NCBI GenBank assembly: GCA_949285665.1
Contig: CASDYC010000001.1
Coordinates: 227,738-291,737 of the forward strand
Length of the DNA stretch: 64,000 bases
Direction: 5' to 3'
From: an uncultured bacterium
Lineage (GTDB): Bacteria; Bacillota_I; Bacilli_A; RFN20; CAG-826
The position numbers and the translations under genes were made by a program. This document shows positions 14,714 through 63,994 of this stretch, piece after piece. The notes under the pieces were generated by a model. It was given only the letters and a program-made list of their open reading frames with translations. It had not been told where the DNA came from and searched no databases. The stretch's first letter is position 1. Each line of letters starts with the position of its first letter.

Positions 14714-17589
14714 TAAATTTCTCCAGATATTTTATCATTTAATTCTTCTTGTGAATGGACTAAAACCTTGCTTGCTTTAGTATTACTTCCATTATCTTCA
14801 ACAATTCCTTCTTTTATAAGCATTGAAAATAATTTACCAGCTCTATTAAAACCAACACCAAAACTTCTAATTATGTAATTAATTGACATAAAATCACGAG
14901 AAAAAGCTAATTCTTTAACATCTTCATATAAAGGATCAGATTGTTCTTTTCTAGGAGTTGTATTTTCTTCTCCATATCTTACATTTTCACTTGTTTGCAT
15001 ATTTTCGGCTTTTTCTACTAGGTTTAAGAAATTTTCATCATAAATAACAGGATATTTTAATTTTAATTCTTGTACGACATTTCTAATTTCAGCTGTACTA
15101 ATAAAACTACCTTGAACTCTTAATAAGCCATTTCTTGACATTTCCATACTAGAAATTAACATATCACCATGTCCTAAAAGCGATTCAGCTCCGACTTCAT
15201 CAAGAATAATTTTACTATTAATTGAATCTTTGACACTTAATGCAACACGAGCAGGAATATTAGATTTAATTAAACCAGAAATTACATCTGCACTTGGTCT
15301 TTGAGTGGCAATAATCATTGAAATACCACAAGCTCTTGCCTTTGAAGCTAATCTTACAACATCACTTTGAATGGTGCGATCTGTTTCAATCAAATCCGCA
15401 AATTCATCAATAACTAAAACAATATAAGGTATAGTTTCACCATTTATTGTTTCCATATATTCGTTATAATCAAAAATGTCTCTAACACCAACTTCTTCAA
15501 ATAAAATATATCTATGATCCATTTCTTGAATTAATTTATCAAGTAATTGTTTTGCATATTGCATATCTTTTAAAATTGGACAAAGTAAGTGTGGTGAATC
15601 TTTGTATTGTCCAAGTTCAACTCTTTTTGGATCTACAAAAATGAATTTTAATTCTTTTGGAGAATATCTCATCATTAAAGCAACTAAGAATGAGTGAATT
15701 AAAACCGATTTACCACTCCCGGTTTGACCACAAACTAAAAGATGAGGAAATTTAACTAAATCACCAAAAACAAAATCACCATTTATGTCTTTTCCAAAAG
15801 GAAGTATTAAACTTCTTTTATCAATTTTTGGCATTGCCTCGAATATTTCTTTAAATGGAACTACAGTACTTTTGGAGTTTGGGATTTCAAAACTTGAAGT
15901 TGTTTTTCCAAAAACAATTTTTTCAAATCTAACTTTACGTCCAGCCAAACTCATTGAAATGTCATCTAAATATCGATCTAAACTTCCAATTGAAACATTT
16001 GCATCAGGTGCAATATCATAACGAGTAACTGAAGGTCCGATTGTATAAGATACAGCTTTTGCCTTTATATTAAGTTGAGAAAATTTTTCATTAATTTTTT
16101 CTTTAATTTGTTCGGCAAGTTCAATATTTTCTTGTAGTTCATTATTATCAATAACTACATCCTTTAAAACTTTATTAGGATCTATTGGCTTAAAATCTTT
16201 ATATGGATCTACATATTCGTTATTTTCGGTTTTAAAATTAGTATCATTTGTAAAATTATTATTTGGAGTTGTATTTTGATTATTTTCATTTGATTTAAAA
16301 ATATTTATATATTCGTTTGTTTTCTTTTCTTCTCTTAAAACGTTTTGATCAGTAATATTTTCGTTTTTATTATTTTCATCATTCTTCTTGTAATCATCTT
16401 TTTCATCTTGTTGTTTAGTATTAATAGATTCATTTATTGTATTTTTTTGAATATTTAATTCTTCATTAATAAAATTGTTTGTTGAATCTATATTAACACT
16501 AACATTTTCATTATTTTGATCTAAAGTAACGTTATTATCGATGTTATTATTTAAATTTGCATCATTAAGTTCTTCTTTTTTAAACTCATTTTCGTGTTCT
16601 TTTAAATTAAAAACACTATCATATTTTGTTTTAAAATCATCATTTGAATTTGAAACATTGTTCTTGTTTAAAGATAAATTAGAATTAATAGGTTGATTTT
16701 TTGTTAAATTTTTATCCTCAAAAGCATCAGATGGAAATGAAGAAAGAGTAATTTCTCCTTCATTTTGTTTTTTAAATTCATTTTCTAAAGATAAAGGGGA
16801 AATAGATTCATCTTCATAAATTTGATGAGAGCCGTAATCATTATTATAGTTTGGAATACTCGTTTGAGTTTCTATATCATTTGATTTAGCTTCGACTTGA
16901 TTTAAATTTAAATCTGATGAATTTTCAATATTATCATTTGAACTTGTTTCATTAGTTTCGTCATTATTAAAATCAGTTTTTTCGACAATCTTATTATCTT
17001 TCAATTCAATTTTTTCAGTTTTTTCTTTTTTGTTGTTATTTACAAAAAATATAATCAATAATTTTATTGCTTTATAAAGCAAGAAGAATAAACTTAAAAA
17101 CATTAATAAAGCACAAATTATTATTGTTCCAATATTTGATGTAAAAATTGTATTAAATAAACAAGCTAAAGAAATGCCAATATAGCCGCCGCCTAAATCA
17201 AAATTAAAGACATTAACAGAGCCGTTAGTAAATTTTATAGTATCCAAAAAGTAACTTGAAAAATTATTTAAAGTCAAAGATTTATCATTAATAAGTGGAA
17301 TATTTATTGCAACTAAGATTCCAAAGAATAATAAAATTAGCCCAGTGAATATAAAATTCCATTTAACTTTTTTAAATTTTTCATTTTGTATAATTAAACA
17401 AATTCCAAGAAAAATTAATATTGTAAAAATTAAAAAATATAAATTTCCAAATAAAAAAACAAAAGCATAAGTAACAACACTTGAGACATATGAGTAATTA
17501 ATCAAACCCAAAATAGAAAACAAACAAATTATTACTCCAAATAGTATTTTTAAATGCTTATTTTTTAACTTATTTTTTAATTTATTCAT
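14713..17589 (-). CDS. ftsK: DNA translocase FtsK/SpoIIIE
   Basis: N-terminal TM helices and a long Asn-rich low-complexity linker. Motor domain with Walker A GQTGSGKS and Walker B VIDEFADL. C-terminal gamma winged-helix domain (INYIIRSFGVGFNRAGKLFSMLIKEGIV). Confidence 0.9.
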   Translation of the reverse strand: MNKLKNKLKNKHLKILFGVIICLFSILGLINYSYVSSVVTYAFVFLFGNLYFLIFTILIFLGICLIIQNEKFKKVKWNFIFTGLILLFFGILVAINIPLINDKSLTLNNFSSYFLDTIKFTNGSVNVFNFDLGGGYIGISLACLFNTIFTSNIGTIIICALLMFLSLFFLLYKAIKLLIIFFVNNNKKEKTEKIELKDNKIVEKTDFNNDETNETSSNDNIENSSDLNLNQVEAKSNDIETQTSIPNYNNDYGSHQIYEDESISPLSLENEFKKQNEGEITLSSFPSDAFEDKNLTKNQPINSNLSLNKNNVSNSNDDFKTKYDSVFNLKEHENEFKKEELNDANLNNNIDNNVTLDQNNENVSVNIDSTNNFINEELNIQKNTINESINTKQQDEKDDYKKNDENNKNENITDQNVLREEKKTNEYINIFKSNENNQNTTPNNNFTNDTNFKTENNEYVDPYKDFKPIDPNKVLKDVVIDNNELQENIELAEQIKEKINEKFSQLNIKAKAVSYTIGPSVTRYDIAPDANVSIGSLDRYLDDISMSLAGRKVRFEKIVFGKTTSSFEIPNSKSTVVPFKEIFEAMPKIDKRSLILPFGKDINGDFVFGDLVKFPHLLVCGQTGSGKSVLIHSFLVALMMRYSPKELKFIFVDPKRVELGQYKDSPHLLCPILKDMQYAKQLLDKLIQEMDHRYILFEEVGVRDIFDYNEYMETINGETIPYIVLVIDEFADLIETDRTIQSDVVRLASKARACGISMIIATQRPSADVISGLIKSNIPARVALSVKDSINSKIILDEVGAESLLGHGDMLISSMEMSRNGLLRVQGSFISTAEIRNVVQELKLKYPVIYDENFLNLVEKAENMQTSENVRYGEENTTPRKEQSDPLYEDVKELAFSRDFMSINYIIRSFGVGFNRAGKLFSMLIKEGIVEDNGSNTKASKVLVHSQEELNDKISGEI

Positions 17590-23657: not shown

Positions 23658-24785
23658 ATGAATTCTATAAAAAAGATTTTGGCTTGCATTAGAACAGCTG
23701 ATAAAAAATTTAATTTAATTGAAAATGAAGATAAAATTGCCATTGGAATTTCTGGTGGCAAAGATTCAATGCTTCTTTTTTATGCTTTACATTTATATTC
23801 AAAATTTTCTTTTAATAATTTTAAAATAGTTCCAATTATGATTGATTTAGGATTTGATAATTTTAATCCAGAACCTATAAGAGCGTATCTTTCATCGTTT
23901 GGTTATGATTTAAAAATTTATGATGCTAAAAATGTATATCAAATTTTAAAATTAAACACTAAAGAAAACCACCATTTGCCATGTTCAATTTGTTCTAAGA
24001 TGAAAAAAGCAATCATCAATAAAGCTGCCAAAAAATATAAATGTAATAAAGTTGCTTTTGCTCATCACGCCGATGATGCAATAGAAACATTGTTTATGAA
24101 TGAAATATCTGGTGGAAAAATTGATACTTTTTCTCCAAAAATGTTTTTAACAAGAGAAAAAATAACTTTTATTAGACCTCTAATATTAGTTTTTGAAAAA
24201 GATATAATAAGATGTGTTAAAGAAAATGATGTTGCTACAATATCTTCAAACTGTCCTGCCGATAAATTAACTCAAAGACAAGATATTAAAGAACTATTAA
24301 ATTCAATATATAAACAATTTCCAGAATCTCATGAAAATTTTTTAACAATGATTACCAATTACGATCATATTGGTTTATGGGATGAAAATGAATTTAGAAA
24401 AATACAAAATAGTAATTTAAGTTTGAAAATTTGTTTAAATAAAAATGATTACTTTAACTTATTTAATTTATTTAAAATTAACAAATTTCATAACAATTAT
24501 GTTTATTACTTGATATATGAAAAAAACAATTTAATCGGTTGTTTTTCTTATTATTTAAAAAATAAAAATATATATCTAAACTTAATTAAAATTCTCAAAA
24601 ACTCTGCAAAACCTCAATATTTTTTAAAAATTATAAAAGAAATTGAAGTCATGTTATTTGAAAAGTATAACCCTTGTATTCTTTATACAAAATTAAAAAA
24701 TAATTACTTCAAAGAAAAATATAAAAAGGAAGATAACACTTTTTATCTTCCTTTAAATGGTAAATTAAGTAATATTTTAAAATGA
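23658..24785 (+). CDS. PP-loop ATPase of the TtcA/TilS tRNA-thiolation superfamily with an extra ~130-aa C-terminal domain
   Basis: PP-loop ISGGKDSM, CSICSKMKK, AFAHHADDAIETLFMN and CPADKLTQRQ. It ends in TGA. Repeat copy B lies in the C-terminal extension. Confidence 0.7.
   Translation: MNSIKKILACIRTADKKFNLIENEDKIAIGISGGKDSMLLFYALHLYSKFSFNNFKIVPIMIDLGFDNFNPEPIRAYLSSFGYDLKIYDAKNVYQILKLNTKENHHLPCSICSKMKKAIINKAAKKYKCNKVAFAHHADDAIETLFMNEISGGKIDTFSPKMFLTREKITFIRPLILVFEKDIIRCVKENDVATISSNCPADKLTQRQDIKELLNSIYKQFPESHENFLTMITNYDHIGLWDENEFRKIQNSNLSLKICLNKNDYFNLFNLFKINKFHNNYVYYLIYEKNNLIGCFSYYLKNKNIYLNLIKILKNSAKPQYFLKIIKEIEVMLFEKYNPCILYTKLKNNYFKEKYKKEDNTFYLPLNGKLSNILK
24597..24627 (+). repeat. Dispersed 31-nt repeat, copy B (AAAAACTCTGCAAAACCTCAATATTTTTTAA)
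   Basis: Identical over 31 nt to copy D on the opposite strand. It lies inside the PP-loop CDS and is read as NSAKPQYFLK, a different frame from copy A. Confidence 0.9.
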
Positions 24786-29881: not shown

Positions 29882-31138
29882 TTAATCCATGTAATCTTTT
29901 AATTTTAGTTGATCGAAAACTTTAAATTGTAAATCATTGTTATAAATCAAATTAACCATGGATTTATTCTTAACAACTTGACATAAAACTTTATTAATCA
30001 CTAACCCAATTAATGCTGGTAAGAAAATAATATTAATAGGCAAAAATGAAAATGATATTGCTAATGATGTTAAATGATTATTACTAACAACTGCATAAAA
30101 ACAAACCATAAATGTAATTGAAAGAATAATTGTATTAGATGGATTAAGATTTATAAAATAAGATAAGATATAACAAAATAAATATCCAAATAAATATCCT
30201 AGAGTTAAAGTTGGAATTACTCTACCACCAGCTAATTTTGTATTATATGTAAATAGCATTAAAAATAAACGAATAAACACTAATAACAATAAATAATAAA
30301 TTGATTTTATATTTAAAATATTTTCAAAAAATATTGATCCATTATTAACAAAATCATTGGAAATAAATTTTAAAGCAAAAATTAAAATAAAAGTCAAAAT
30401 AACAAAAATAATAAAACTAAACTTATTTCTTAAATATCTAAATAAATAGAAAAGATTTTTATATAAAAAACCTAAAATAAAAGAAATTATTCCAATAATT
30501 GGGATAAAACATAAATATAATGGTTCTAAATATGAAGTAATATTAATAAAATTTGAATAAATATAATTTCCATTTAATAAAATATAAAATAAATAACTAA
30601 CTAACAAAACATAAACAAAATATAAGTTATTTTTATTTAATATCTTTATTTTAAAATTCTCAAAACTATAAAATAAACCCGCTAATGGATTTAAAAATGC
30701 AATAGAAAAACCAATTCCCGGAAAATACTTTTTAAAATCATCATTTAAATAATTAAAAAATAAAAAACCTAAAATAAAAGCAATTAAAACACTTGGTGCT
30801 TCTGTTCCAAATGGTAATCCAATTATAAAACTTAAACAACAACTTACAATTGTTAGAATTATTAAAAGAATTGTTCCTATAATTTTATGTCTTTTAATAA
30901 ATCCTTTATTGACAAATTTTTCAGCTAATTTTAATAAAAAATACTCCAGGAGTAAAACTAAAACAATTAATAAAAAATAAGGTATTAAAAACGTATAATT
31001 TAATTCAATATTTATAAAATTAAATATTAATCCACTCAATTTATTAAAAGCAAAAAAGACAACACTTACTAAAAAAGAATATAAAGTTAATATTAAAAAA
31101 GTACCGCAAAACCTCAATATTTTACTTTTATTTGTCAT
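29882..31138 (-). CDS. Polytopic membrane protein, probable ClC-type chloride channel/antiporter family
   Basis: At least 10 predicted TM helices. ClC-like motifs GTEAPSVLIA (compare GxEGP) and GGRVIPTLTLGYLFG (compare GxFxP). Repeat copy C overlaps codons 6-14. Confidence 0.5.
   Translation of the reverse strand: MTNKSKILRFCGTFLILTLYSFLVSVVFFAFNKLSGLIFNFINIELNYTFLIPYFLLIVLVLLLEYFLLKLAEKFVNKGFIKRHKIIGTILLIILTIVSCCLSFIIGLPFGTEAPSVLIAFILGFLFFNYLNDDFKKYFPGIGFSIAFLNPLAGLFYSFENFKIKILNKNNLYFVYVLLVSYLFYILLNGNYIYSNFINITSYLEPLYLCFIPIIGIISFILGFLYKNLFYLFRYLRNKFSFIIFVILTFILIFALKFISNDFVNNGSIFFENILNIKSIYYLLLLVFIRLFLMLFTYNTKLAGGRVIPTLTLGYLFGYLFCYILSYFINLNPSNTIILSITFMVCFYAVVSNNHLTSLAISFSFLPINIIFLPALIGLVINKVLCQVVKNKSMVNLIYNNDLQFKVFDQLKLKDYMD
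31095..31123 (+). repeat. Dispersed repeat, copy C (aaaaaagtacCGCAAAACCTCAATATTTT)
   Basis: The 19-nt core GCAAAACCTCAATATTTT is shared with A, B and D. It is antisense to the 5' end of the ClC-like CDS, where it encodes KILRFCG. Confidence 0.75.
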
Positions 31139-50513: not shown

Positions 50514-50546
50514 CAAAAAGCTCTCCAAAACCTAAATATTTTTAAA
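50514..50546 (+). repeat. Dispersed repeat, degenerate copy E (caaaaagctCTCCAAAACCTAAATATTTTTAAA)
   Basis: It aligns with the consensus with a few substitutions. It is intergenic, 69-100 nt upstream of the LysR start. Confidence 0.6.
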
Positions 50547-52264: not shown

Positions 52265-52654
52265 TTAAATTTTTAAACTCAAAATATTTTTAATAATTAA
52301 TTTGTCAGCTGGTAAAAAATTAATATTTTTTAAGTCTTCTTTTTTAACCCATAATGCATTTTCATGTTCTAATAATTCAATATGAGGTTTTAATAAATGA
52401 CAAAAATAAACTTTCATATGCAAATGAAAGTTTGGATAATCATAATCAATATCCATCAAGAAATTGTCAACTTCAATATCAGCATTTAATTCTTCTTTAA
52501 TCTCTCTTTTTAAGGCACTTTCAGGAGTTTCATCTTCTTCTATTTTTCCACCTGGAAATTCCCAACCATCTTTAAATTCTCCATAACCTCTTTGAGTTAT
52601 AAAAATTAAGTCATTTTTAACTATTATTGCTGCTACTACATTTACTATTTTCAT
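52265..52654 (-). CDS. Nudix hydrolase, MutT-like
   Basis: Nudix box GGKIEEDETPESALKREIKEELN. About 129 aa. Only 2 nt downstream of the helicase gene. Confidence 0.85.
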   Translation of the reverse strand: MKIVNVVAAIIVKNDLIFITQRGYGEFKDGWEFPGGKIEEDETPESALKREIKEELNADIEVDNFLMDIDYDYPNFHLHMKVYFCHLLKPHIELLEHENALWVKKEDLKNINFLPADKLIIKNILSLKI

Positions 52655-52656
52655 AA

Positions 52657-55533
52657 TTAATTATTTATATCCTTTTTAAAATATTCATATAAATCACTTC
52701 TAACTTCATCACTTAAAGCAAAGTTAAATACAACATATTTAAAATTATTTCTCATAATTTCTTTAAAATCAATTACACTCATTTCACCTAAAAAATAATG
52801 CTTATTGCTTCCGCTATTTTCATCAATTGATTTTCTAACAAATAAATAAATTTTTGTATTATTATTTTTAGAATTTATCAAAGTTTGCATGTTCTTTGAT
52901 TCAATATACTCCCCATGTCTTGAATTCCATTGAAATTTTTGTCTATTTATAAACATATCTTCATATCTAGTCGCATCAGAAATTTCTGGAGTTTTTATAT
53001 AATTAATAAAAATAGGAAATACATTTTCTTCTTTTAAATATTGATAACCATATATAGTACTTGCTCTATTTATTTTACAATTAAAAATAATTGAAACATC
53101 TTCTCTTGAATATAAAGAATTTAAACATAAATCAGATTTTTTATATTTTTTTCCATAAAATTTATTATTTCTTAATTTAGACATTAATATTAAGTTATTA
53201 ATATTATCTAAAAATGAAGAATTTTTTAACATCTCTTCAAAATTTTCACTAATGTTTAATGAATTATTAATTAAACTTAAAGAATCATTGTTTTTTCCAT
53301 AAAAACAACCATTAAATTCATTAATAATTGTCAATTTTTTATTTAAAGAAATTAATTTTTCATCAAAATATTTAGTTAAATTTTTATTTTTAAATAGATA
53401 TTCAAGAGCATTAACTTCAGCTAATCTTAATCCAGAAGATATAATTTTTGAAATAAATCGATAATATTCAAGTTCTTTTTGTGAATAATTTAAATCTTTT
53501 TCAATTTTTAAAAGAAAATCTTGATAAGATTTAAATTTTTCAATAATTCTATATGGATCAAAATAAGTAAATTCATAGAAATCAGTTAAATTTGGAATTC
53601 TATTAAGTCTATTTTTTAGATGCGCATATTCAATTTTAAAGTTTGACAGGGTATCAAAATTAGTTTTCTTAATTGATTCAAATATTTTCTTTTGAGCAAT
53701 TTCATCAAATTCAATTGTTGAAATTCCAGGAATGAATGAAGATGTAACAACTAATCTTGCTTGTTCTTTATTACCAGATTCTGAAAATGCTTTAGCTATC
53801 ATATAATTTGAATCATAATTTCCAATAAAGTCAATTATTGTAACAAAATCTTTATTCTTCCATTTTCTAAGACCTCTACCAAGTTGTTGAATAAAAATAA
53901 TGCTTGATTGAGTTGGTCTTAACATTATTATTTGATTAACTTCTGGAATGTCGACGCCTTCATTAAGAATATCAACAGAAATAATAAAATCTAAATATTC
54001 ACTATTTTTATTAGTTTCTTCAAGCAATTTAAAATATTTTTCTCTTTCATTTGATGAAAAAGAGCCATCTAAAAATTTGGTTTTATAATTTTTTTGATTC
54101 AATAAAGTTTCAAGTCTTCTTCCTTCTTCTTTTCTAGAAACAAAAATTAAACCTCTTAATCTATCTCCGCTATATCCATAAAAATTACTTTGTTTAATAA
54201 TATATTCAACTCTTTCATTACTAAATAATTTATTAAAGTCTTGTTTATCATATGTTTCATCGTTAATTCCTTTTAAATCAGTTATCCCATAGTAATGAAA
54301 AGGGCATAATAATCCATAATCAAGGGCATCTTCTAATCTAATTTCAAAAATAACATTATGATCAAATAAATTAAAAATTAAGCTTTCATCATTAGTTCTT
54401 TCTGGTGTTGCAGTCATTCCAAGAATAAATTTAGGTTTAAAATAATTTAATATTTTTTGATATGTATTTGAACCAGCTCTATGTACTTCATCAATAACAA
54501 TATAATCAAATTTTGTAACTTCAATAAAATCGTCAATTTTTTTAGACATCATTTCACAAGTTGAAAATACAAAATCATATTCATTATTATCAAAATATGA
54601 AACATCATTTAAATTTTTAATATAAGTTTTGTCTCCAGTTAGAATTGAAAAAGATGAATTAGGAAAAATTCTTTGATAAGCAGATATTGCTTGAATTAAT
54701 AATGTAGTTCTATGAGCTAAGAAAAGAACTTTTTTAGCAATAACATTTTTTAAGGCAAATGCGCTAGCATATGTTTTTCCAGTTCCAGTTGATGAAATTA
54801 ATAAACCTCTTTTACCACCTAGCTCAATTAGTTCTTTAAATTTTTTACTAAACTCTATTTGCATTGAGTTTGGTTCAATTTTTTGATTAATTAAATTATC
54901 AACACTTAATATAACTTTTTCTTTGTTAGCTTCATCATAAATTTTAGTATAAGTGTCTATGTAATCATTTAAATCTGTTGATTTTTTCCATAATAAATTA
55001 AATTGATCGAATAATTCTTTTATTAATTTTCCATCTTTAGTTGAAATTAATTCAGTATTCCATTCTTGATTAACTGTTAAAGCTCTAGCAGTTATATTAC
55101 TAGATCCAATAATAATTTTATAAATATCATCTTTTTGTTTAAAAAAATAACCCTTTGTATGAAAACCATCAAGATCAGATGATTTATACATTTTAACTTC
55201 AATATTGTTAAAATTATCCTGTAAAAATTTTAATGCTTTTGGTTCAGTAAAACATAAATAATCACTTGTTAAAATTTTACCTTTTATGCCCTTATCATTA
55301 ATTTCTTTTAATGTTTCTTTTAATATTTGAAGTCCAGAATATGTTATAAATGCTACAGAAATATAAAATTCTTCGCATTTTTTAAATTCTTCTTTTAAAG
55401 TTGAAATTATTTTTTTATTTTCTTCTTTATTATTGTATAAAAAAGAAGGACATAACGACTCAACTGAATCTAAATTATAATCTATAAAAGCTTTATTTAG
55501 AGCATTTTTAATATCATTATAAGTTTCACTCAT
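52657..55533 (-). CDS. PLD/HKD nuclease - SF2 (ResIII-like) helicase - DUF3427 fusion protein, 958 aa
   Basis: HKD motif HTKGYFF...IIGSSNITARAL near residues 125-150. Helicase motifs: I STGTGKTYAS, II IVIDEVHR, III GMTATPER, and V/VI NEGVDIPEVN...QQLGRGLRK. The C-terminal ~150 aa fit the DUF3427 pattern (YSREDV...GYQY...PIFINY...YEDMF...FQWNS...LFVRK...HYFLGE). Confidence 0.8.
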   Translation of the reverse strand: MSETYNDIKNALNKAFIDYNLDSVESLCPSFLYNNKEENKKIISTLKEEFKKCEEFYISVAFITYSGLQILKETLKEINDKGIKGKILTSDYLCFTEPKALKFLQDNFNNIEVKMYKSSDLDGFHTKGYFFKQKDDIYKIIIGSSNITARALTVNQEWNTELISTKDGKLIKELFDQFNLLWKKSTDLNDYIDTYTKIYDEANKEKVILSVDNLINQKIEPNSMQIEFSKKFKELIELGGKRGLLISSTGTGKTYASAFALKNVIAKKVLFLAHRTTLLIQAISAYQRIFPNSSFSILTGDKTYIKNLNDVSYFDNNEYDFVFSTCEMMSKKIDDFIEVTKFDYIVIDEVHRAGSNTYQKILNYFKPKFILGMTATPERTNDESLIFNLFDHNVIFEIRLEDALDYGLLCPFHYYGITDLKGINDETYDKQDFNKLFSNERVEYIIKQSNFYGYSGDRLRGLIFVSRKEEGRRLETLLNQKNYKTKFLDGSFSSNEREKYFKLLEETNKNSEYLDFIISVDILNEGVDIPEVNQIIMLRPTQSSIIFIQQLGRGLRKWKNKDFVTIIDFIGNYDSNYMIAKAFSESGNKEQARLVVTSSFIPGISTIEFDEIAQKKIFESIKKTNFDTLSNFKIEYAHLKNRLNRIPNLTDFYEFTYFDPYRIIEKFKSYQDFLLKIEKDLNYSQKELEYYRFISKIISSGLRLAEVNALEYLFKNKNLTKYFDEKLISLNKKLTIINEFNGCFYGKNNDSLSLINNSLNISENFEEMLKNSSFLDNINNLILMSKLRNNKFYGKKYKKSDLCLNSLYSREDVSIIFNCKINRASTIYGYQYLKEENVFPIFINYIKTPEISDATRYEDMFINRQKFQWNSRHGEYIESKNMQTLINSKNNNTKIYLFVRKSIDENSGSNKHYFLGEMSVIDFKEIMRNNFKYVVFNFALSDEVRSDLYEYFKKDINN

Positions 55534-55538
55534 ATGAT

Positions 55539-56213
55539 TTATTTATCTTTTTTATTAATTTTATCAACTTCTTTTGGATTATAACTTGTCTTATATCCAT
55601 AATTTTCTTTAGGTCGATAATTATTTGGATAAATTATATCTGATTTAATATCATTAGCTATTTTTTGTAATCTTTCATAAATAAAATATGGATCCTTAAT
55701 ATCTTCTAAAATATATTTTTTATTATCTGCAACAATGTAAATATCTCCGACTTTACATAACCTTTCAACTAAACCGATTTTTAAATTAACACTAGAAATA
55801 GAAGAATAATTAATACTTGATATATTTGCTCCAATAAAACCAGATTTAATAATTATTCTATTTCCAGTAAAGGCGTATTCTTCAACTTTTTGTCTTCTTG
55901 AAGCGGTAATTAATGAAGAAATCCATAACCACACTGGTAATAAATGTAATATAAAAAAGAATACTATAAAAATAATAGCAGGCAATGGTATTTCAGACAT
56001 AAATTTAAAAATCATTACAATTGCTGTTATATCAAATATCAACCATATAATTGCAAATGGTAAAAACTTAAAAATATTTGATAAAATAAAAGACAACTTT
56101 CGTGGTTTTCCTTTCCAAAGAATCGTTTCATCACTTGTAAGAACTAGATCAATACTAGGATTATAATTTACCTTATTATCTTTAATAAAATATTTATCGT
56201 CAATTTTTTTCAT
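55539..56213 (-). CDS. Membrane protein with a bacterial PH (bPH_2/YdbS-like) domain
   Basis: Two TM helices, then FTGNRIIIKSGFIGANISSINYSSISSVNLKIGLVERLCKVGDIYI, typical of bPH_2. Confidence 0.6.
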   Translation of the reverse strand: MKKIDDKYFIKDNKVNYNPSIDLVLTSDETILWKGKPRKLSFILSNIFKFLPFAIIWLIFDITAIVMIFKFMSEIPLPAIIFIVFFFILHLLPVWLWISSLITASRRQKVEEYAFTGNRIIIKSGFIGANISSINYSSISSVNLKIGLVERLCKVGDIYIVADNKKYILEDIKDPYFIYERLQKIANDIKSDIIYPNNYRPKENYGYKTSYNPKEVDKINKKDK

Positions 56214-56239
56214 ATAAAAATTATAATTAATTTTTGTTT

Positions 56240-56797
56240 TTAATAATAGTATTTATTACCATATGTTTTACAAATATTTGAAATATCTTCTGCTTTTAAA
56301 ACTTCATAATGATATTTTACCTCTATTTCATCCAAATTATATTCTTTTTTAACTGGAATAATTAAACTTTTAAAGGCAATATCGTCAGTAACAACCTCTC
56401 CACAATATGAATAAATGTTTACTTTATAGCCATCTACATTTGCAAAATGAACATATGAACCTGTACCCTCATATCTGCAAGTAACTAGTAAATTAAATTT
56501 ATTAAAATCTACCTCATTTTCTATTCTATCTTTAAGATAGTCATTATTTGTTTCATATTTAAAATAATTTGGATCGTTAAAATAAATTAGTAAATCATCA
56601 AGTGAAAAAAATAGTTTTTTATCAATGTATCTAAAAAAACTATCATCAAGATTAGGGTAATCTAATAAATCAGCCCATCTTGGATATTTTCTAGTTCCAT
56701 AAATCAAGCTAACATCATAATTAAGCTTATAAGATAGCTGACATCCTGTAATAAAAAATAATGAAACTAATAAATTTAGAAAAACACTTTTTTTCAT
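56240..56797 (-). CDS. Lipoprotein, function unknown
   Basis: Lipobox LFFITGC. It is the first gene of the helicase operon. Confidence 0.45.
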   Translation of the reverse strand: MKKSVFLNLLVSLFFITGCQLSYKLNYDVSLIYGTRKYPRWADLLDYPNLDDSFFRYIDKKLFFSLDDLLIYFNDPNYFKYETNNDYLKDRIENEVDFNKFNLLVTCRYEGTGSYVHFANVDGYKVNIYSYCGEVVTDDIAFKSLIIPVKKEYNLDEIEVKYHYEVLKAEDISNICKTYGNKYYY

Positions 56798-56844
56798 GTT
56801 TTTATTATACTAAAAAATGTCAAAAATATACTAAATTATTCCTA

Positions 56845-56866
56845 AAAAACTACTTAAAAACTACTT
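56845..56866 (+). repeat. Perfect tandem duplication of an 11-mer (aaaaactactt x2) adjacent to repeat copy D
   Basis: Read directly from the sequence. It lies in the promoter region of the lipoprotein/bPH/helicase operon. Confidence 0.8.
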
Positions 56867-56869
56867 TTC

Positions 56870-56900
56870 TTAAAAAATATTGAGGTTTTGCAGAGTTTTT
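56870..56900 (-). repeat. Dispersed 31-nt repeat, copy D (minus strand AAAAACTCTGCAAAACCTCAATATTTTTTAA)
   Basis: Identical to copy B over 31 nt. The A-run end overlaps the TAA stop of the GNAT gene. It lies 73 nt upstream of the operon start at 56797. Confidence 0.9.
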
Positions 56901-57462: not shown

Positions 57463-57885
57463 CTATAAATCTTGTTCAAATTCTTTAAATAATTTTTCTT
57501 TATTTTTAATTATATCTTCATCAGATATTCCATATAATTTAGAAAAAAATGTAAAAGTGTAATCTGGAGTGAAAAAATCATCTAATTTTAGTTCGCTTGT
57601 TAAAAAACCAACTTTACTTTTATATTCTAAAGCATCGCCAGTTATTTTTTTATTATTATAAAAAATTTCTCCACTATTAGGTTGAATTAAAGAAGACAAA
57701 ATTCTAAGTAATGTCGTTTTTCAAGCACCATTTGGTCCTAAAATACCATAAATATTTCCTTCTTTAAAATCCATTGAAAAATCTTTTAATGCCGTTAAAT
57801 ATTTTTCATTACTTTTATTATTTTTTTGTTGTTTTTGATTTATTTTAAATTTTTTAGTTAAATTTCTAACACTTAATGTATTCAC
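57463..57885 (-). pseudogene. ABC transporter ATP-binding protein relic (in-frame TGA in Walker A, 3' truncated)
   Basis: From GTG at 57885: VNTLSVRNLTKKF...[37 protein letters not shown]... The TGA at 57721-57723 sits where the invariant Gly of GxxGxGKT belongs. The frame ends at ...KEFEQDL, before any signature or Walker B motif. Confidence 0.75.
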
Positions 57886-58870: not shown

Positions 58871-61180
58871 TTAATTTGAATATAATTTATCAACTAATTC
58901 AGGATAATCAATAAATGGATTTCTATTTCCTTGAAATTCATAAATTCTATTATTTCTTTGAATTTCAAAATCATCTACTGGATCTAATTCATTCCAATCT
59001 AATAAAACAGAAAGTTTTCCAATTTGAGTATCTGTTGAATTATTAATATCTTCAACAATACTTAAAAAGTCATATCTTAGAGCCATATAGAATAAAATTC
59101 TTGCAACATCACCTCTATGATCGCCTTCAAATTTATGTACTACACTACCATTATTTGCAACATTTGGGAAAAATGTATTGCTAGAATCTGAATTATCATA
59201 AAATTTATTCCCGTGTAAAAGATTTGTTGTTTGACAACATGCTCTTAAATTAAATAAATCAGTAGCATGATTTTTAGTTGAATTTGATGGTCGAGGATCT
59301 TTTCCATTTTCTTTCATTAAAGAACATGGCCAGACATGTTCTTTATTCCAAGTTCCATTATAACTAGCACTTAATTCGTCTCCGTCAAACATACCATATA
59401 AAACACCTGGTTTTGTGATACTTTCATCTGTATAAATAATAGTATTAGAAACTGTTCCATAACTAATTTTTGTCATATTAGAAATTAAGGAATGTAATTC
59501 ATTTTCTAATATTGTTGAATCAACTTCAAAATCAATATCTTTATAATATTCTTCTTTACTAGTTAATGTATAGTTTGCATTTGGAACTACACCTTGACCA
59601 GGTTTTGCAGCAACTAAATTAACATCTGGAGTTTTTAATTCTAAATCAACATCATTTGGAACAAAAACTTTTAAACTAATACTATATAAATAAACTGCTT
59701 TTGTTTGATTAGATAATGATAATTGAAATGATGTTGTATCTACTGATATATCATTTTCGCTCCAAAGTTTTGCAATATTTTCTTTTGGTAGGTTTTCTCC
59801 ATGAGTATAACTATCCATTGTTACATCATATCTAGCAGGTGAGTTTGTTTTAATAATTAATTCATAAGATAAAACTGTCACTTTACCATTAAATTGTGTA
59901 ACTATATTCCATGGAGTTTTATGAGGGCTACTATTAGATCCAATTTGAATTCCTTCATAATCTTGGCCTAAATAATTAAAAGCATCATAATCCCAAGTTA
60001 ATCCGTTTGAAGAAAAACTTCCAGCACTTGTAGATCCTCCATTAAAATCATTTTTATTAAATACATGTTCATAATATTGAACACTACCATCCGCAGTTGG
60101 AATTACTGTAACTTTAATACTATCTTTAACTTCGTTAATTGAAGCAGTAATTATTGCTTCGCCTTCTTTAATTGCACTAATTAATCCATTTTGATTAACG
60201 CTTGCAACACTAGAATTACTACTTTCATATAATATTGAACCTTCAATATTTTCTAAACTAACATTTAATTGTAAAGTATCACCTAAATTTAATGTTATTT
60301 CTTCTCCATTTAAAATAACTAAACTTGGAGGAACTTCTTTTTCTTTAACAATTATATTTATTGAATCACTAATTCCATTTGCAGAAACACTAATGGTGAC
60401 ACTACCTTTTGAAATGGCACTTATTAAACCAGTATTTGAAATTATTGCAACTTCATTATTTGAAGATGAATAAATAACATCTTCCGTTAAATTTTCAGTT
60501 TTTAAATTAAGTTGTAAATTACTTCCAACTTCTAATTCACTGTTATTTGGAGTTAATATTTCTAAAATTGGTGTAGGAGTTATTGTTTTTTCTTTTACAA
60601 TAACTTTTATTTGATCGTTAACATTATTTGCTTTTACTTCAATTAATGTTTCGCCCTTACTTATAGCAGTAATTAAACCGGAATTATTAACTTTTGCAAT
60701 AAATTCATTTTGAGAAGAAAATATTAAATCTTCAGTTATGTTTTCAGTTTTAATATTTAATTTATAAGTTTGATCAATTTCTAAACTAAGCTCATCTCCA
60801 TCAAGAATTTCAATACTAGGATTTAAAATTGTTGTATTTTTACTAACAACAACTTTAATTTTATCCGAAGTGTTGTTAGCACTTGCAGTAATAAAACTTT
60901 CTCCTTCACTTAAAGCAGTTATTAAACCAGTATTACTAACACTTGCAACACTAGGATCTGATGAGGTATAAATTATTGTTTCTGTTAAATTTTGACTTGA
61001 TATATTTAGTTGTAGAGTATCATTAACTTTTAATTGAACTTCTTCACCATTTTGAATATCTAAAACATATTGAACTACTGACGTAGTATTTTGATAAGTA
61101 TTATCACAAGAAGAAATACTAGATAAACTTAAAAATAGAGCAAATATTATAAAACTTAGACTTTTAAATTTTTTTGTCAT
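58871..61180 (-). CDS. Surface lipoprotein nuclease: 4 x Big_2 Ig-like repeats, a central unknown domain, and a C-terminal Endonuclease I (EndA/Vvn-like) domain
   Basis: Lipobox LSSISSC and four ~80-aa repeats of the Big_2 type (..SS.....ASVS.TGLITA...GE..I.A.......I.V.V). The C-terminus carries KEHVWPCS, DLFNLRACCQTTNLLHGNKFY, HRGDVARILFYMALRY and NRNPFIDYPELV. Confidence 0.75.
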   Translation of the reverse strand: MTKKFKSLSFIIFALFLSLSSISSCDNTYQNTTSVVQYVLDIQNGEEVQLKVNDTLQLNISSQNLTETIIYTSSDPSVASVSNTGLITALSEGESFITASANNTSDKIKVVVSKNTTILNPSIEILDGDELSLEIDQTYKLNIKTENITEDLIFSSQNEFIAKVNNSGLITAISKGETLIEVKANNVNDQIKVIVKEKTITPTPILEILTPNNSELEVGSNLQLNLKTENLTEDVIYSSSNNEVAIISNTGLISAISKGSVTISVSANGISDSINIIVKEKEVPPSLVILNGEEITLNLGDTLQLNVSLENIEGSILYESSNSSVASVNQNGLISAIKEGEAIITASINEVKDSIKVTVIPTADGSVQYYEHVFNKNDFNGGSTSAGSFSSNGLTWDYDAFNYLGQDYEGIQIGSNSSPHKTPWNIVTQFNGKVTVLSYELIIKTNSPARYDVTMDSYTHGENLPKENIAKLWSENDISVDTTSFQLSLSNQTKAVYLYSISLKVFVPNDVDLELKTPDVNLVAAKPGQGVVPNANYTLTSKEEYYKDIDFEVDSTILENELHSLISNMTKISYGTVSNTIIYTDESITKPGVLYGMFDGDELSASYNGTWNKEHVWPCSLMKENGKDPRPSNSTKNHATDLFNLRACCQTTNLLHGNKFYDNSDSSNTFFPNVANNGSVVHKFEGDHRGDVARILFYMALRYDFLSIVEDINNSTDTQIGKLSVLLDWNELDPVDDFEIQRNNRIYEFQGNRNPFIDYPELVDKLYSN
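60101..61069 (-). repeat. Intragenic tandem array of four divergent ~240-255-bp Big_2-encoding units
   Basis: Protein residues ~38-360 of the nuclease lipoprotein form four recognisably homologous units. Confidence 0.7.
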
Positions 61181-62965: not shown

Positions 62966-63994
62966 CTATCTAAATTGTTCAAATCTTAAAATATTATAAG
63001 TATAACCTTCATTATTTATAATTATGTCATTATCTTTGTTTTCTGGTTTAATTATTTTAATATTAAATAGATCTGAATTTTTTTTACTTAAAAATTGTCG
63101 TCCTTGACTTGTTAATATTAATATAATTTTCTTTTCAAATAATATTTTGTTTATTATTTTATTAAATTCTTCAAATCCTAATTCATGAACTAAAGCAAAA
63201 TCAACTCCATCTAATATTAAAACTAGATTTTCCTGATCATTTACTTGATAAGAATTTATAAAATTAAGTAATTCTTCTTTATTTTTAATTAAAAGTTTAA
63301 ATAGATATTCTTTGTCAACATCATACTCATAAAATCCTTTATCATTATATATAACAAACTTATAATTATTATCTAAATTAATTAAATCAGTTATTAAAGA
63401 TGATATAAATGTAGATTTGCCCACCCCAGTAATACCTTGATACCATATATTATCTAAATTACATGTAATTAATTTATTATTTTCTTCTCCAATTATAAAT
63501 GAATTATTAATATCTATATTATGATTTTTATCTATATTTTGAAGAATATTTAAACCATTTAAAAATTCTAAATTTAATTCAAAATAAGTTAATTCTTTAA
63601 AATTTAAATGCTTGTATAAATATTTAACTTGATTGTTATTTAAATTTTCAAAAATTTCTTTATTTGATTTATTTTTAAAACTATCATAATAATATTTTTC
63701 TGCTATTTTTAATTTGTTATTAATAAAAGGTTCTTCAATTAATTTATTTCTAATTAAATAATGTTTTAATTCATCACTGCTTTCTCCAATTTTATATTTA
63801 ATTGCAAGAAGTTTAGTTAAATTATCTATATAAGTTAAATTATAATTTCTTTCATTTTCTAAATTGTATTTATTAATTAGTTCTTTGCCATATTCTTCTT
63901 TTGAATAAATGATTCTCAGTGGTCCTGCAATAGATTTTTTAAAAATTAAACAATCAAAACAATACATTTTAATATAAGAAATAAATGCATCCAT
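62966..63994 (-). CDS. Minimal NACHT/STAND-like P-loop NTPase with an unknown ~185-aa N-terminal region (N-terminus may extend beyond the window)
   Basis: Walker A QGITGVGKSTFISSL, Walker B LVLILDGVDFAL and a sensor-1-like IILILTSQGRQ. The protein ends ~45 aa later. The frame stays open upstream of the ATG to the window edge. Confidence 0.5.
   Translation of the reverse strand: MDAFISYIKMYCFDCLIFKKSIAGPLRIIYSKEEYGKELINKYNLENERNYNLTYIDNLTKLLAIKYKIGESSDELKHYLIRNKLIEEPFINNKLKIAEKYYYDSFKNKSNKEIFENLNNNQVKYLYKHLNFKELTYFELNLEFLNGLNILQNIDKNHNIDINNSFIIGEENNKLITCNLDNIWYQGITGVGKSTFISSLITDLINLDNNYKFVIYNDKGFYEYDVDKEYLFKLLIKNKEELLNFINSYQVNDQENLVLILDGVDFALVHELGFEEFNKIINKILFEKKIILILTSQGRQFLSKKNSDLFNIKIIKPENKDNDIIINNEGYTYNILRFEQFR

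What the first reader, a model, noticed from the sequence alone, without database searches (positions are those of the whole stretch)
52265..56797. Operon of lipoprotein, bPH membrane protein, PLD-nuclease/SF2-helicase/DUF3427 fusion and Nudix: candidate uncharacterised nucleic-acid defence or repair module
Four minus-strand genes are separated by only 26, 5 and 2 nt: 56240-56797, 55539-56213, 52657-55533 and 52265-52654. The 958-aa central protein has three parts. These are an HKD/PLD nuclease motif (HTKGYFF...GSSNIT), a complete SF2 helicase core (GTGKT, DEVH, TATPER, QQLGRGLR) and a C-terminal DUF3427-like region.

Nuclease-helicase fusions are typical of restriction-like and anti-phage genes. 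I know of no assigned function for this three-domain architecture. I also know of no described system that couples it to a two-TM bacterial PH-domain protein and a MutT-type Nudix.

The promoter region carries repeat copy D plus a perfect 11-nt tandem duplication (56845-56866). The neighbourhood is accessory in character, with a GNAT gene, an ABC ATPase relic and surface nuclease genes upstream, and SGNH and choloylglycine hydrolase genes downstream.
Basis: partly seen in the sequence, partly recalled or inferred. Interest (0 to 1): 0.7.

Follow-up and report, generated by a model that had tools for sequence, protein, structure and literature searches.

The report
SauUSI-type restriction enzyme with Nudix partner
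The large nuclease-helicase gene is an ordinary member of the well-studied SauUSI family of restriction enzymes that cut methylated foreign DNA; it travels as a two-gene cassette with a small Nudix hydrolase, and the neighbouring membrane and lipoprotein genes are only bystanders.

Summary

The 958-aa PLD/SF2-helicase/DUF3427 protein is not uncharacterised. It aligns end to end with S. aureus SauUSI (PDB 7CLG, E 3.5e-183; PADLOC Type IV REase model, 6.8e-185). SauUSI is an ATP-dependent Type IV enzyme that shreds 5mC/5hmC DNA.

The Nudix linkage is real. A close Nudix homologue lies near the SauUSI-like gene in 75 of 81 loci, usually adjacent and on the same strand. This linkage was already noted in 2011 and is catalogued as PADLOC PDC-S07.

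The bPH and lipoprotein genes are not partners. They appear in 0 of 80 other species. In strains of the same species (about 98% nt identity in the flanks), the stretch from the end of bPH to the Nudix stop codon is replaced by a Type II RM system.

So the unit is a two-gene cassette in a restriction-system hotspot, and both genes are under purifying selection.

New inference: the partner Nudix is probably a 5-methyl/5-hydroxymethyl-dCTP pyrophosphohydrolase. Its closest characterised relative, 3GWY, has that activity and nests among SauUSI-linked Nudix genes. This removes from the nucleotide pool the same bases that the nuclease reads in DNA. It is untested.

The parts
52657..55533 (-). SauUSI-family Type IV modification-dependent restriction endonuclease (958 aa)
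   Evidence: It aligns end to end with SauUSI (7clg_A), residues 1-952 vs 1-951, 614 bits, E 3.5e-183. PADLOC mREase_IV PDLC03658 matches at 6.8e-185 over 1-952 of 953. At least 7997 homologues share the architecture. dN/dS against strain L088 is 0.087.
54988..55362 (-). PLD/HKD nuclease domain (aa 58-182), with H125-x-K127 and G143-S-S-N146
   Evidence: PLDc_2 8.2e-10 and RE_NgoFVII 2.3e-4. H125, K127, G143, S144, S145 and N146 are invariant in 20 homologues. The SauUSI motif is 119-HxK(x)4E-126; the window has K132 at the E position.
53866..54882 (-). SF2 helicase-like translocase ATPase (aa 218-556), with GTGKT 250-254, DEVH 348-351, TATPER 374-379 and QQLGRGLR 549-556
   Evidence: ResIII 5.2e-36, Helicase_C 1.4e-15 and DEAD 1.1e-13. 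The motif residues are invariant in alignment A1.
52678..53457 (-). DUF3427 region (aa 693-952), corresponding to part of the SauUSI coupler plus the SRA-like target-recognition domain
   Evidence: DUF3427 4e-51. SauUSI pocket residues Y831, F841, I842, D858 and W868 align with window Y830, F842, I843, D859 and W869; the wedge residue M829 aligns with Y828.
52265..52654 (-). Nudix hydrolase (129 aa), the conserved partner of SauUSI-like genes (PADLOC PDC-S07); inferred 5-methyl/5-hydroxymethyl-dCTP pyrophosphohydrolase
   Evidence: NUDIX and NUDIX_4. PDC-S07 3.2e-48 over the full length. A homologue is linked to the SauUSI-like gene in 75/81 loci. Its closest solved relative, 3GWY, is a 5-Me/5-hm-dCTPase. 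dN/dS is 0.161.
52267..55558 (-). The replaceable cassette (3292 bp): the last ~6 codons of bPH, the SauUSI-like gene and the Nudix gene
   Evidence: In blastn of the window against same-species strain L090, homology (98.4%) ends at 55559 and resumes at 52266. L090 carries 5436 bp of different cargo in between.
55539..56213 (-). Two-TM bPH_2 membrane protein. It is a conserved flank gene and not part of the restriction module.
   Evidence: bPH_2 8.5e-9. It has many close homologues (99-50% identity). It is present with other cargo or no cargo in L090-L094 and absent from 80 other SauUSI loci.
56240..56797 (-). Lipoprotein (185 aa, lipobox ITGC). It is a conserved flank gene and not part of the module.
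   Evidence: No family hit. It is retained upstream of bPH in L088, L090 and L092 whatever the cargo, and is frameshifted in L090.
56845..56895 (-). Intergenic repeat copy (56872-56895) plus an 11-nt tandem duplication (56845-56866), upstream of the lipoprotein gene
   Evidence: Both are conserved in strains that lack the SauUSI cassette, so they belong to the flank.

Best explanation
The real unit is a two-gene Type IV restriction cassette, 52265-55533 on the minus strand. It sits in a strain-variable restriction-system slot between a conserved bPH membrane-protein gene and an SGNH hydrolase gene. The host is an uncultured, very AT-rich (about 23% GC) bacterium that uses the standard code.

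Gene 1 is a SauUSI-family enzyme. By homology to SauUSI, it is a dimer held together by its PLD nuclease domains. The C-terminal SRA-like domain flips out 5-methyl- or 5-hydroxymethyl-cytosine in incoming DNA. That recognition switches on the SF2 ATPase, which translocates and loops the DNA. The PLD site then makes double-strand breaks, and repeated cycles shred the modified DNA. No methyltransferase is needed, because the host's own DNA lacks the mark.

Gene 2 is the family's usual Nudix partner. I infer that it hydrolyses 5-methyl-dCTP and 5-hydroxymethyl-dCTP to the monophosphates. This keeps the bases that gene 1 reads out of the nucleotide pool. The most likely purpose is to stop recycled modified nucleotides from being built into the host chromosome and provoking self-restriction.

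What is shown: the homology, the motif conservation, the cassette boundaries, the linkage and the purifying selection. What is inferred: the 5mC/5hmC specificity of this particular enzyme, the Nudix substrate, and its protective role. The upstream lipoprotein and bPH genes probably only supply read-through transcription.
For: Gene 1 identity:
- Full-length match to the SauUSI structure 7CLG (E 3.5e-183) and to the PADLOC Type IV REase model (6.8e-185).
- HxK, GSSN, Walker A, DExH, motif III and motif VI are all invariant.
- 5 of 6 SauUSI 5mC-pocket residues are conserved.
- The SauUSI mechanism is taken from PMC3141236, PMC7913695 and bioRxiv 10.1101/2025.10.16.682607.

Two-gene unit:
- A Nudix homologue (E 1e-34 to 1e-56) occurs in 75/81 loci. 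It is adjacent on the same strand with a gap of <=50 nt in 62 of them, and 3 of the 6 exceptions have no room on the contig.
- The same linkage is reported in S. aureus and in S. suis, 23/23.
- The same-species breakpoints at 55559 and 52266 bracket exactly these two genes, and the alternative cargo is a Type II RM system.
- dN/dS is 0.087 and 0.161.

Nudix substrate:
- A profile of 40 linked Nudix proteins ranks 3GWY first among all PDB chains, at 131.9 bits, against NudG 84.4 and E. coli MutT 79.1.
- 3GWY (B. fragilis Q5LBB1) hydrolyses 5-Me-dCTP and 5-hm-dCTP with kcat/Km of 4-5e6 per M per s. Its 5-OH-dCTP rate is 50-fold lower and canonical NTPs are much lower (PMC5158307).
- In an NJ tree the linked clade is sister to the 3GWY clade. 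That clade (93% bootstrap) itself contains SauUSI-linked members P0239 and P0151.
- Three loci add a DCTPP1-like MazG, another known 5-methyl-dCTPase fold, directly upstream of the SauUSI-like gene.
- The S. aureus nudix deletion did not give the transformable phenotype seen in the sauUSI deletion mutant. This fits an accessory rather than catalytic role.
Against: - No activity of either window protein has been measured.
- The window Nudix is only 36.5% identical to 3GWY.
- 3GWY itself and its closest Bacteroides relatives are solitary genes in housekeeping-like contexts. The activity is therefore not exclusive to restriction cassettes, and the transfer of function crosses a clade boundary.
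- The second-best structure, 5X1X, is labelled MutT and has no substrate data available here.
- The S. aureus nudix mutant was viable, so any self-protection is not essential under laboratory conditions.
- The PLD motif has K132 where SauUSI has E126, and the wedge residue is Y828 rather than Met. Sequence context or modification preference may therefore differ.
- The tree is a simple NJ tree on 128 columns, with weak support at some internal nodes.
- Only the 80 best loci of at least 586 were examined.
Confidence: 0.8

Rival explanations
1. One reading: all four genes (lipoprotein, bPH membrane protein, nuclease-helicase, Nudix) form one new membrane-associated defence or repair system.
For: The intergenic gaps are 26, 5 and 2 nt, all four genes are on the same strand, and no intrinsic terminator was found between them. 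The same four-gene order occurs in sister strain L088.
Against: No bPH or lipoprotein homologue lies next to any of 80 SauUSI-like genes in other species. bPH is not among the Pfam families matched by two or more of the 129 upstream neighbours. Same-species strains L090-L092 keep lipoprotein + bPH and swap SauUSI + Nudix for a Type II RM system. In L093/L094, bPH sits beside unrelated genes. bPH is conserved like a lineage core gene (86-50% identity series), whereas the SauUSI-like protein drops to 55% outside the species. SauUSI works alone in vitro and in E. coli (PMC3141236).
Confidence: 0.04
2. The Nudix has the same inferred activity but a different purpose. It is a second arm of defence that destroys the 5-hydroxymethyl-dCTP or 5-methyl-dCTP pools that phages with modified cytosine must build. 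This starves their replication or forces them to use plain cytosine. It does not serve to protect the host chromosome.
For: The substrate inference is the same. PADLOC lists the family as a stand-alone defence candidate, PDC-S07. A 3GWY-clade Nudix is also paired with a different defence-type helicase, PDC-S41, and some members are solitary. That fits an activity useful on its own. From established knowledge, nucleotide-pool depletion is a known anti-phage strategy, as with dCTP deaminase and dGTPase systems.
Against: There are no phage data for any member. The near-obligate pairing with an enzyme that reads the same bases in DNA is explained more simply by protection from self-restriction. 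The two roles are not mutually exclusive.
Confidence: 0.25
3. The Nudix is an ordinary MutT-type 8-oxo-dGTP antimutator, or a general housekeeping pyrophosphatase, that merely happens to lie next to the restriction gene. Xu et al. 2011 suggested that it disposes of pyrophosphate.
For: The best NCBIfam hits include TIGR00586 mutt (89.5 bits) and MutT PRK10776. Several of the PDB relatives are labelled MutT.
Against: The mutt score is below its 97.9-bit cutoff. The gene is gained and lost together with the SauUSI-like gene between strains of one species and travels with it across Bacillota, Bacteroidota, Methanobrevibacter, Fibrobacter and Veillonella. The clade profile scores E. coli MutT 50 bits lower than 3GWY. 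At the position of MutT Asn119, the clade has an invariant Asp (D117), as do NudG (D118) and 3GWY; the roles of those two residues are from my memory of the literature. Nudix enzymes do not hydrolyse free pyrophosphate, and a helicase ATPase releases phosphate, not pyrophosphate (established knowledge).
Confidence: 0.07
4. The enzyme is a SauUSI-family member but recognises a different DNA modification or sequence context than S5mCNGS with 5mC/5hmC.
For: The wedge residue differs (Y828 vs Met-829) and the PLD motif has K132 for E126. From inspection of the alignment, the coupler and TRD are the least conserved parts. DUF3427 domains in other fusions show varied specificities (abstract of PMC6765204).
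Against: The pocket residues that contact the flipped base and its methyl group (Y830, F842, I843, D859, W869) are conserved, and G829, Y830, F842 and D859 are invariant in 20 homologues. The partner Nudix family points to 5-substituted cytosine.
Confidence: 0.15

Closest known systems
SauUSI (S. aureus SAUSA300_2431; PDB 7CLG), a Type IV ATP-dependent modification-dependent restriction endonuclease
   Same: Length is 958 vs 953 aa, and the two are collinear from end to end. Both have a PLD HxK nuclease, an SF2 translocase with all motifs, a coupler and an SRA-like DUF3427 recognition domain, and 5 of 6 pocket residues match. Neither has a cognate methyltransferase. Both have a Nudix gene in the same operon.
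   Different: The host is a distant, very AT-rich uncultured bacterium. The Nudix lies downstream here but upstream in S. aureus. K132 replaces E126 in the HxK(x)4E motif, and Tyr replaces the Met wedge. Activity is untested.
PADLOC PDC-S07 (a candidate single-gene defence Nudix), including S. aureus SAUSA300_2432 / Newman Sae2385
   Same: The HMM matches over the full length at 3.2e-48. It sits next to a Type IV REase, as reported in S. suis (23/23) and S. aureus.
   Different: None known. The family has no demonstrated function. Deleting the S. aureus gene did not give the transformable phenotype of the sauUSI deletion mutant.
B. fragilis Q5LBB1 (PDB 3GWY), a 5-methyl-(d)CTP / 5-hydroxymethyl-dCTP pyrophosphohydrolase
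   Same: It is the closest solved and characterised relative of the linked Nudix clade (131.9 bits) and is 41-50% identical to the best-matching linked members. It shares the Y-P-x-F-x3-M and A-D motifs and a D/N in place of the last Gly of the Nudix box.
   Different: It is only 36.5% identical to the window protein. It lies in the sister clade, and in Bacteroides it is a solitary gene.
E. coli NudG/Orf135 (Nudix) and DCTPP1/RS21-C6 (MazG-like): 5-methyl-dCTP pool sanitisers
   Same: They have the proposed activity class. The Asp equivalent to Orf135 D118 is invariant in the linked clade. A DCTPP1-like MazG flanks the SauUSI-like gene in 3 loci.
   Different: NudG scores 47 bits lower than 3GWY against the clade profile. 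Neither is described as a partner of a restriction enzyme.
Strain-variable defence or restriction hotspots between conserved core genes
   Same: One slot between bPH and SGNH holds a Type IV cassette in the window and L088, and a Type II RM system in L090-L092.
   Different: No integrase, att-like repeat or mobile-element gene is seen at the junctions.

Membership tests
[quoted passage not shown] | N-terminal PLD-family nuclease with a catalytic HxK motif and GSxN | tested here: met
   PLDc_2 8.2e-10. H125, K127 and G143-S-S-N146 are invariant in 20 homologues. The acidic residue of SauUSI's HxK(x)4E is Lys132 here, which is the clade consensus.
[quoted passage not shown] | Central SF2 helicase-like ATPase with a complete motif set | tested here: met
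   ResIII 5.2e-36 and Helicase_C 1.4e-15. GTGKT, DEVH, TATPER and QQLGRGLR are present and invariant.
[quoted passage not shown] | C-terminal coupler plus SRA-like DUF3427 recognition domain with a 5mC pocket | tested here: met
   DUF3427 4e-51. Y830, F842, I843, D859 and W869 align with SauUSI Y831, F841, I842, D858 and W868; the wedge Met829 is Tyr828.
[quoted passage not shown] | Full-length collinear homology to SauUSI | tested here: met
   7clg_A matches 1-952 vs 1-951, 614 bits, E 3.5e-183. PADLOC PDLC03658 matches 1-952 of 953.
[quoted passage not shown] | No cognate methyltransferase in the unit | tested here: met
   The cassette holds only two genes. The flanking genes are not methyltransferases. 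A motif scan found no C5-methyltransferase in the 64-kb window, which is only a weak negative.
[quoted passage not shown] | ATP-dependent cleavage of 5mC/5hmC DNA and restriction of methylated plasmids or phage | not testable with these tools
   Needs purified protein or genetics.
PADLOC PDC-S07 / SauUSI-linked Nudix | Full-length match to the family HMM and adjacency to a Type IV REase | tested here: met
   PDLC04899 3.2e-48 over 1-125 of 135. The gene starts 2 nt downstream of the SauUSI-like gene. The linkage holds in 75/81 loci.
5-substituted dCTP pyrophosphohydrolase (Q5LBB1/3GWY type) | Intact Nudix catalytic box (G x5 E x7 R E U x E E) | tested here: met
   G36, E42, R50, E51, E54 and E55 are present and invariant in 40 linked proteins.
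5-substituted dCTP pyrophosphohydrolase (Q5LBB1/3GWY type) | Closer to the characterised enzyme than to Nudix enzymes of other specificity | tested here: inconclusive
   The clade profile ranks 3GWY first (131.9 bits vs 79-94 for the MutT/NudG types). SauUSI-linked genes occur in 3GWY's own clade. However, the window protein alone scores 3GWY (76.8 bits) about the same as 3HHJ, labelled MutT (76.3 bits), and it lies in the sister clade.
5-substituted dCTP pyrophosphohydrolase (Q5LBB1/3GWY type) | High kcat/Km for 5-Me-dCTP and 5-hm-dCTP, low for canonical dNTPs | not testable with these tools
   Needs an enzyme assay. Reference values are in PMC5158307.
MutT (8-oxo-dGTP diphosphatase) | Score above the curated equivalog cutoff | tested here: not met
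   TIGR00586 scores 89.5 bits against a cutoff of 97.9. PRK10776 scores 76.6 against 148.
   Found in 0/80 other species. The genes are uncoupled in same-species strains.

The most novel reading that the evidence does not exclude
SauUSI-type enzymes and their Nudix partners form a two-part system. One protein reads 5mC/5hmC in DNA. The other specifically destroys 5-methyl- and 5-hydroxymethyl-dCTP in the pool. The Nudix would act as a metabolic immunity factor that stops recycled or phage-made modified nucleotides from marking the host chromosome for self-destruction, and possibly also starves modified-cytosine phages. In function it would be a non-methyltransferase counterpart of the 'M' in an R-M system. 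It would also explain a gene linkage left open since 2011.
Probability: 0.45. Interest if true: 0.6.

Novelty: new member of a known kind. Interest (0 to 1): 0.3.

Why it matters
The window locus itself is a routine annotation: a Type IV restriction cassette that would block entry of Dcm-type methylated DNA. That is useful to know if anyone tries to transform this organism.

The wider value lies in two by-products. First, there is a clean natural experiment: same-species strains swap a Type IV cassette for a Type II RM system at exact breakpoints. This shows that tight gene spacing with bPH and the lipoprotein gene does not mean functional coupling. Second, there is a concrete and cheap-to-test hypothesis for the SauUSI-linked Nudix (PADLOC PDC-S07), whose role has been open since 2011. 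It would clear 5-methyl- and 5-hydroxymethyl-dCTP, the same bases the nuclease reads.

Tried and rejected
- Paralogue check. A second 958-aa ORF at 14713-17589 is not a paralogue (best BLASTP E 0.38).
- Direct linkage of the characterised enzyme. I tested whether B. fragilis 3GWY is itself SauUSI-linked. It is not: three lookups found it solitary. I therefore fell back on profile ranking, a tree, and the contexts of 55-59% identical relatives.
- MazG as a Nudix replacement. I tested whether loci lacking the Nudix carry a MazG-like substitute. They do not. The three MazG-like genes occur in loci that also have the Nudix.
- Promoter and terminator scans. These were uninformative in this AT-rich DNA: 52 promoter-like sites against 63 expected, and no terminators.
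- RNA searches. Rfam and tRNA scans of the window found nothing, so the dispersed repeat remains unexplained.
- 5X1X. A literature search for this entry returned only irrelevant papers, so I could not establish its source organism or substrate.
- Cassette junctions. No att-like repeats or integrase were found.
- Not done: structure prediction and fold search were unnecessary given E 1e-183 to a solved structure. The organism was not identified beyond being an uncultured low-GC bacterium.

Full report
OBSERVATION. The gaps between them are 26, 5 and 2 nt, and every quoted motif is visible in the translations.

Pfam confirms the domains. The 958-aa protein has PLDc_2, ResIII/DEAD, Helicase_C and DUF3427. 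The 224-aa two-TM protein has bPH_2. The 129-aa protein has NUDIX/NUDIX_4. The 185-aa protein has no family, but it carries a signal peptide and an ITGC lipobox.

The 11-nt tandem duplication at 56845-56866 is real, and so is the dispersed repeat copy at 56872-56895. The window is about 20-30% GC throughout. Its ORFs are intact under the standard bacterial code.

WHAT THE CENTRAL GENE IS. The three-domain architecture is not unassigned. The protein matches PADLOC's Type IV methyl-directed restriction enzyme model from end to end (PDLC03658, E 6.8e-185, residues 1-952 of a 953-position model). It also matches the crystal structure chain 7CLG_A, which is S. aureus SauUSI, at residues 1-952 against 1-951 (614 bits, E 3.5e-183).

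SauUSI is well characterised:
- It is an ATP-dependent Type IV enzyme that cuts DNA containing 5mC or 5hmC, preferentially at S5mCNGS (PMC3141236).
- It is the main barrier to transformation of S. aureus (PMC3312211).
- It is a dimer joined through its PLD nuclease domains, with an SF2 translocase, a helical coupler and an SRA-like recognition domain (PMC7913695).
- Single-molecule work shows loop translocation triggered by 5mC, followed by repeated cleavage that shreds the DNA (bioRxiv 10.1101/2025.10.16.682607).

In the window protein the catalytic and motor residues are all present: H125, K127, G143-S-S-N146, GTGKT 250-254, DEVH 348-351, TATPER and QQLGRGLR. They are invariant across 20 homologues. 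SauUSI's modelled 5mC pocket residues Y831, F841, I842, D858 and W868 align with Y830, F842, I843, D859 and W869.

There are two differences. K132 stands where SauUSI has E126 in HxK(x)4E, and Lys is the consensus of this clade. The wedge residue Met829 is Tyr828 here.

The family is very large. At least 7997 proteins match at E <= 1e-30, and the listed hits share the same architecture.

WHICH NEIGHBOURS BELONG TO IT. I fetched 80 loci from 80 species that encode relatives of the protein. They include Lachnospiraceae, Erysipelotrichales, Methanobrevibacter, Fibrobacter, Veillonella and others. I then searched their ORFs with the four window proteins.

A close Nudix homologue (E 1e-34 to 1e-56) is present in 75 of 81 loci, counting L001, a conspecific contig. 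The arrangements are:
- 56 loci: immediately downstream, same strand.
- 6 loci: immediately upstream, same strand.
- 13 loci: other arrangements nearby.
- 6 loci: no Nudix found, and 3 of these have no room left on the contig.

bPH and lipoprotein homologues were found in none of the 80. A Pfam scan of 129 upstream neighbours found 155 different families, and bPH was not among those matched by two or more neighbours. Several neighbours are defence-type genes.

The decisive test came from the bPH protein. It has a dense series of close homologues at 99, 98, 97, 86, 70, 67, 64% identity and so on. By contrast, the SauUSI-like protein falls to 55% identity outside its own species. The bPH contexts are as follows:
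- Strain L088 (94% nt identity) has the same order as the window.
- Strains L090-L092 (98.4% nt identity in the flanks, so the same species) have GNAT, lipoprotein and bPH, then a Metallophos protein, a controller HTH, two Type II methyltransferases and a Type II restriction enzyme (PADLOC REase_II 3e-106), then SGNH and CBAH. They have no SauUSI-like gene and no Nudix.
- L093/L094 (bPH 70% identical) have bPH beside unrelated genes.

blastn places the breakpoints at window 55559, about six codons before the bPH stop, and at 52266, the Nudix stop codon. The replaceable segment therefore holds exactly the SauUSI-like gene and the Nudix.

The upstream repeat and the 11-nt duplication are conserved in the strains that lack the cassette, so they belong to the flank. 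Against L088, dN/dS is 0.087 for the SauUSI-like gene and 0.161 for the Nudix. Both genes are being maintained by selection.

Tight spacing and the absence of a predicted terminator make read-through transcription from the lipoprotein/bPH unit plausible. That would be a transcriptional convenience and not a functional system.

WHAT WAS ALREADY KNOWN ABOUT THE NUDIX. Xu et al. 2011 noted a conserved MutT/Nudix gene (SAUSA300_2432) linked to sauUSI and to at least 60 homologues. They left its function open and guessed at pyrophosphate disposal.

Monk et al. 2012 deleted the S. aureus gene and did not obtain the transformable phenotype of the sauUSI mutant. Their primer sequences show that the nudix stop codon lies 1 nt before the sauUSI ATG.

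PADLOC lists the family as defence candidate PDC-S07, and the window protein matches it at 3.2e-48. A 2025 preprint finds PDC-S07 co-localised with Type IV RM in 23 of 23 S. suis genomes. So the linkage is known but the function is not. I found no paper in the searchable library that assigns one.

WHAT THE NUDIX PROBABLY DOES. Its best solved relative is 3GWY (B. fragilis Q5LBB1). Nguyen et al. 2016 showed that 3GWY hydrolyses 5-Me-dCTP (kcat/Km 4.8e6), 5-hydroxymethyl-dCTP (4.4e6) and 5-Me-CTP (6.7e6). Its activity on 5-OH-dCTP is 50-fold lower, and activity on canonical NTPs is much lower. They read this as removal of mutagenic nucleotides and did not mention restriction.

These are the same two cytosine modifications that SauUSI recognises in DNA.

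Three lines of evidence tie 3GWY to the linked Nudix proteins:
- A profile of 40 SauUSI-linked Nudix proteins ranks 3GWY first among all PDB chains at 131.9 bits. An uncharacterised 'MutT', 5X1X, follows at 117.7. NudG scores 84.4 and E. coli MutT 79.1.
- In a bootstrapped NJ tree the linked proteins form one clade, and its sister group contains 3GWY and 5X1X. NudG and MutT lie outside.
- 3GWY and its nearest Bacteroides relatives are solitary genes, which weakens a direct transfer of function. But other members of 3GWY's own clade (93% bootstrap) are adjacent to PLD-helicase-DUF3427 genes. These are P0239 and P0151, the latter on a Bacteroidota conjugative element. A third member, P0191, overlaps the start of a Schlafen-type helicase that matches PADLOC PDC-S41.

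Further support:
- The linked clade shares with 3GWY the Y-P-x-F-x3-M motif and an invariant Ala-Asp (D117). That Asp aligns with NudG D118 and with Asn119 of MutT. The functional roles of D118 and N119 are from my memory of the literature and were not checked here.
- The window protein scores below the curated MutT cutoff (89.5 against 97.9 bits).
- Three loci carry a DCTPP1-like MazG gene directly upstream of the SauUSI-like gene, in addition to the Nudix. DCTPP1 and Orf135 are the two textbook 5-methyl-dCTP sanitisers.

MECHANISM PROPOSED. Shown by homology: gene 1 is a SauUSI-type motor nuclease with no cognate methyltransferase.

Inferred, at about 0.6: gene 2 hydrolyses 5-methyl- and 5-hydroxymethyl-dCTP.

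Inferred more weakly: its role is to stop modified nucleotides from being incorporated into the host chromosome, where they would create SauUSI targets. Such nucleotides could be released when restricted DNA is degraded, or made by infecting phages. A second possibility, which is not exclusive of the first, is that it starves phages that build 5hmC or 5mC genomes. Both readings fit the viable, still-restricting S. aureus nudix mutant.

COMPARISON AND NOVELTY. The locus is a new member of a known kind: a SauUSI-family Type IV enzyme with its usual PDC-S07 Nudix partner.

Two things go beyond the routine annotation. One is the strain-level cassette swap, which defines the unit precisely. The other is the testable hypothesis for the Nudix. 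That hypothesis concerns the whole family and not this window in particular, and it may have been proposed in literature I could not search.

LIMITS. No biochemistry was done. Only the best 80 of at least 586 loci were examined. My ORF calls use the longest ORF, so the quoted gaps are approximate. The tree is a simple distance tree. The host organism was not identified. The 64-kb window cannot show whether the genome lacks C5-methyltransferases; a motif scan found none in it.

Noticed in passing
window 10742-10765(+), 24602-24625(+), 31097-31131(+), 50521-50544(+), 56872-56895(-): A dispersed repeat of about 30 nt with core CTCTGCAAAACCTCAATATTTTTT. Zero copies are expected by chance. It is conserved in sister strains and has no Rfam match. 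Some copies overlap predicted ORFs. Its function is unknown.
   Followed up: partly
window 57474/57475 (relic ORF 57463-57699): A 1624-bp deletion relative to strains L090 (locus 579-2202) and L088 (4116-5739). It removes the 3' part of an ABC ATPase gene and the whole ABC-2 permease gene, which explains the 'ABC ATPase relic'.
   Followed up: yes
L090:4079-9496 (also L091, L092): Same-species strains carry a different cargo in the slot the SauUSI cassette occupies here: a 652-aa Metallophos protein and a complete Type II RM system (controller HTH, two N6/N4 methyltransferases, REase_II at 3e-106). The role of the Metallophos protein is unknown; it has no PADLOC hit.
   Followed up: partly
L036:2955-3275, L048:4132-4461, L056:5608-5952: A DCTPP1-like MazG pyrophosphatase (PF12643) lies directly upstream of the SauUSI-like gene on the same strand. 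These loci also have the Nudix downstream, so two different nucleotide pyrophosphatases flank one restriction gene.
   Followed up: partly
L095:5001-7402: A Nudix from the 3GWY clade (P0191, Phascolarctobacterium-type) overlaps the start of a Schlafen-group-3 helicase that matches PADLOC candidate PDC-S41 (1e-240). This Nudix family therefore also pairs with a defence gene other than SauUSI.
   Followed up: no
L099:2902-8343: A Nudix plus SauUSI-like (984 aa) pair sits next to relaxase, TraG-like and DUF4134 genes, so it is carried on a Bacteroidota-type conjugative element.
   Followed up: no
window 56798-56815 and the starts of the four genes: TATAAT lies only 6 nt before the lipoprotein ATG, and none of the four genes has an obvious Shine-Dalgarno sequence. 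This may indicate leaderless or SD-independent initiation in this organism.
   Followed up: no
L090:2880-3439: The lipoprotein gene is frameshifted in strain L090. It is intact in the window, L088 and L092.
   Followed up: partly
window 62966-63994(-): A 342-aa ORF with a weak, sub-threshold NACHT-like P-loop match (E 1.6e-4), close to the surface-nuclease genes.
   Followed up: no
window 58871-61180(-): A 769-aa secreted or lipoprotein-like protein with four Big_2 repeats and a C-terminal Endonuclease I domain, which looks like a surface DNA nuclease. It is followed by a 260-aa lipoprotein with no family. Both are conserved in L088.
   Followed up: no
L003:1038-5307: The closest genome-collection relative of the SauUSI-like gene (51% identity over its best aligned segment) has a Type III RM methyltransferase (PADLOC 3.6e-174) and a large gene directly upstream. 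This is one example of the defence-type neighbourhoods of this cassette.
   Followed up: no
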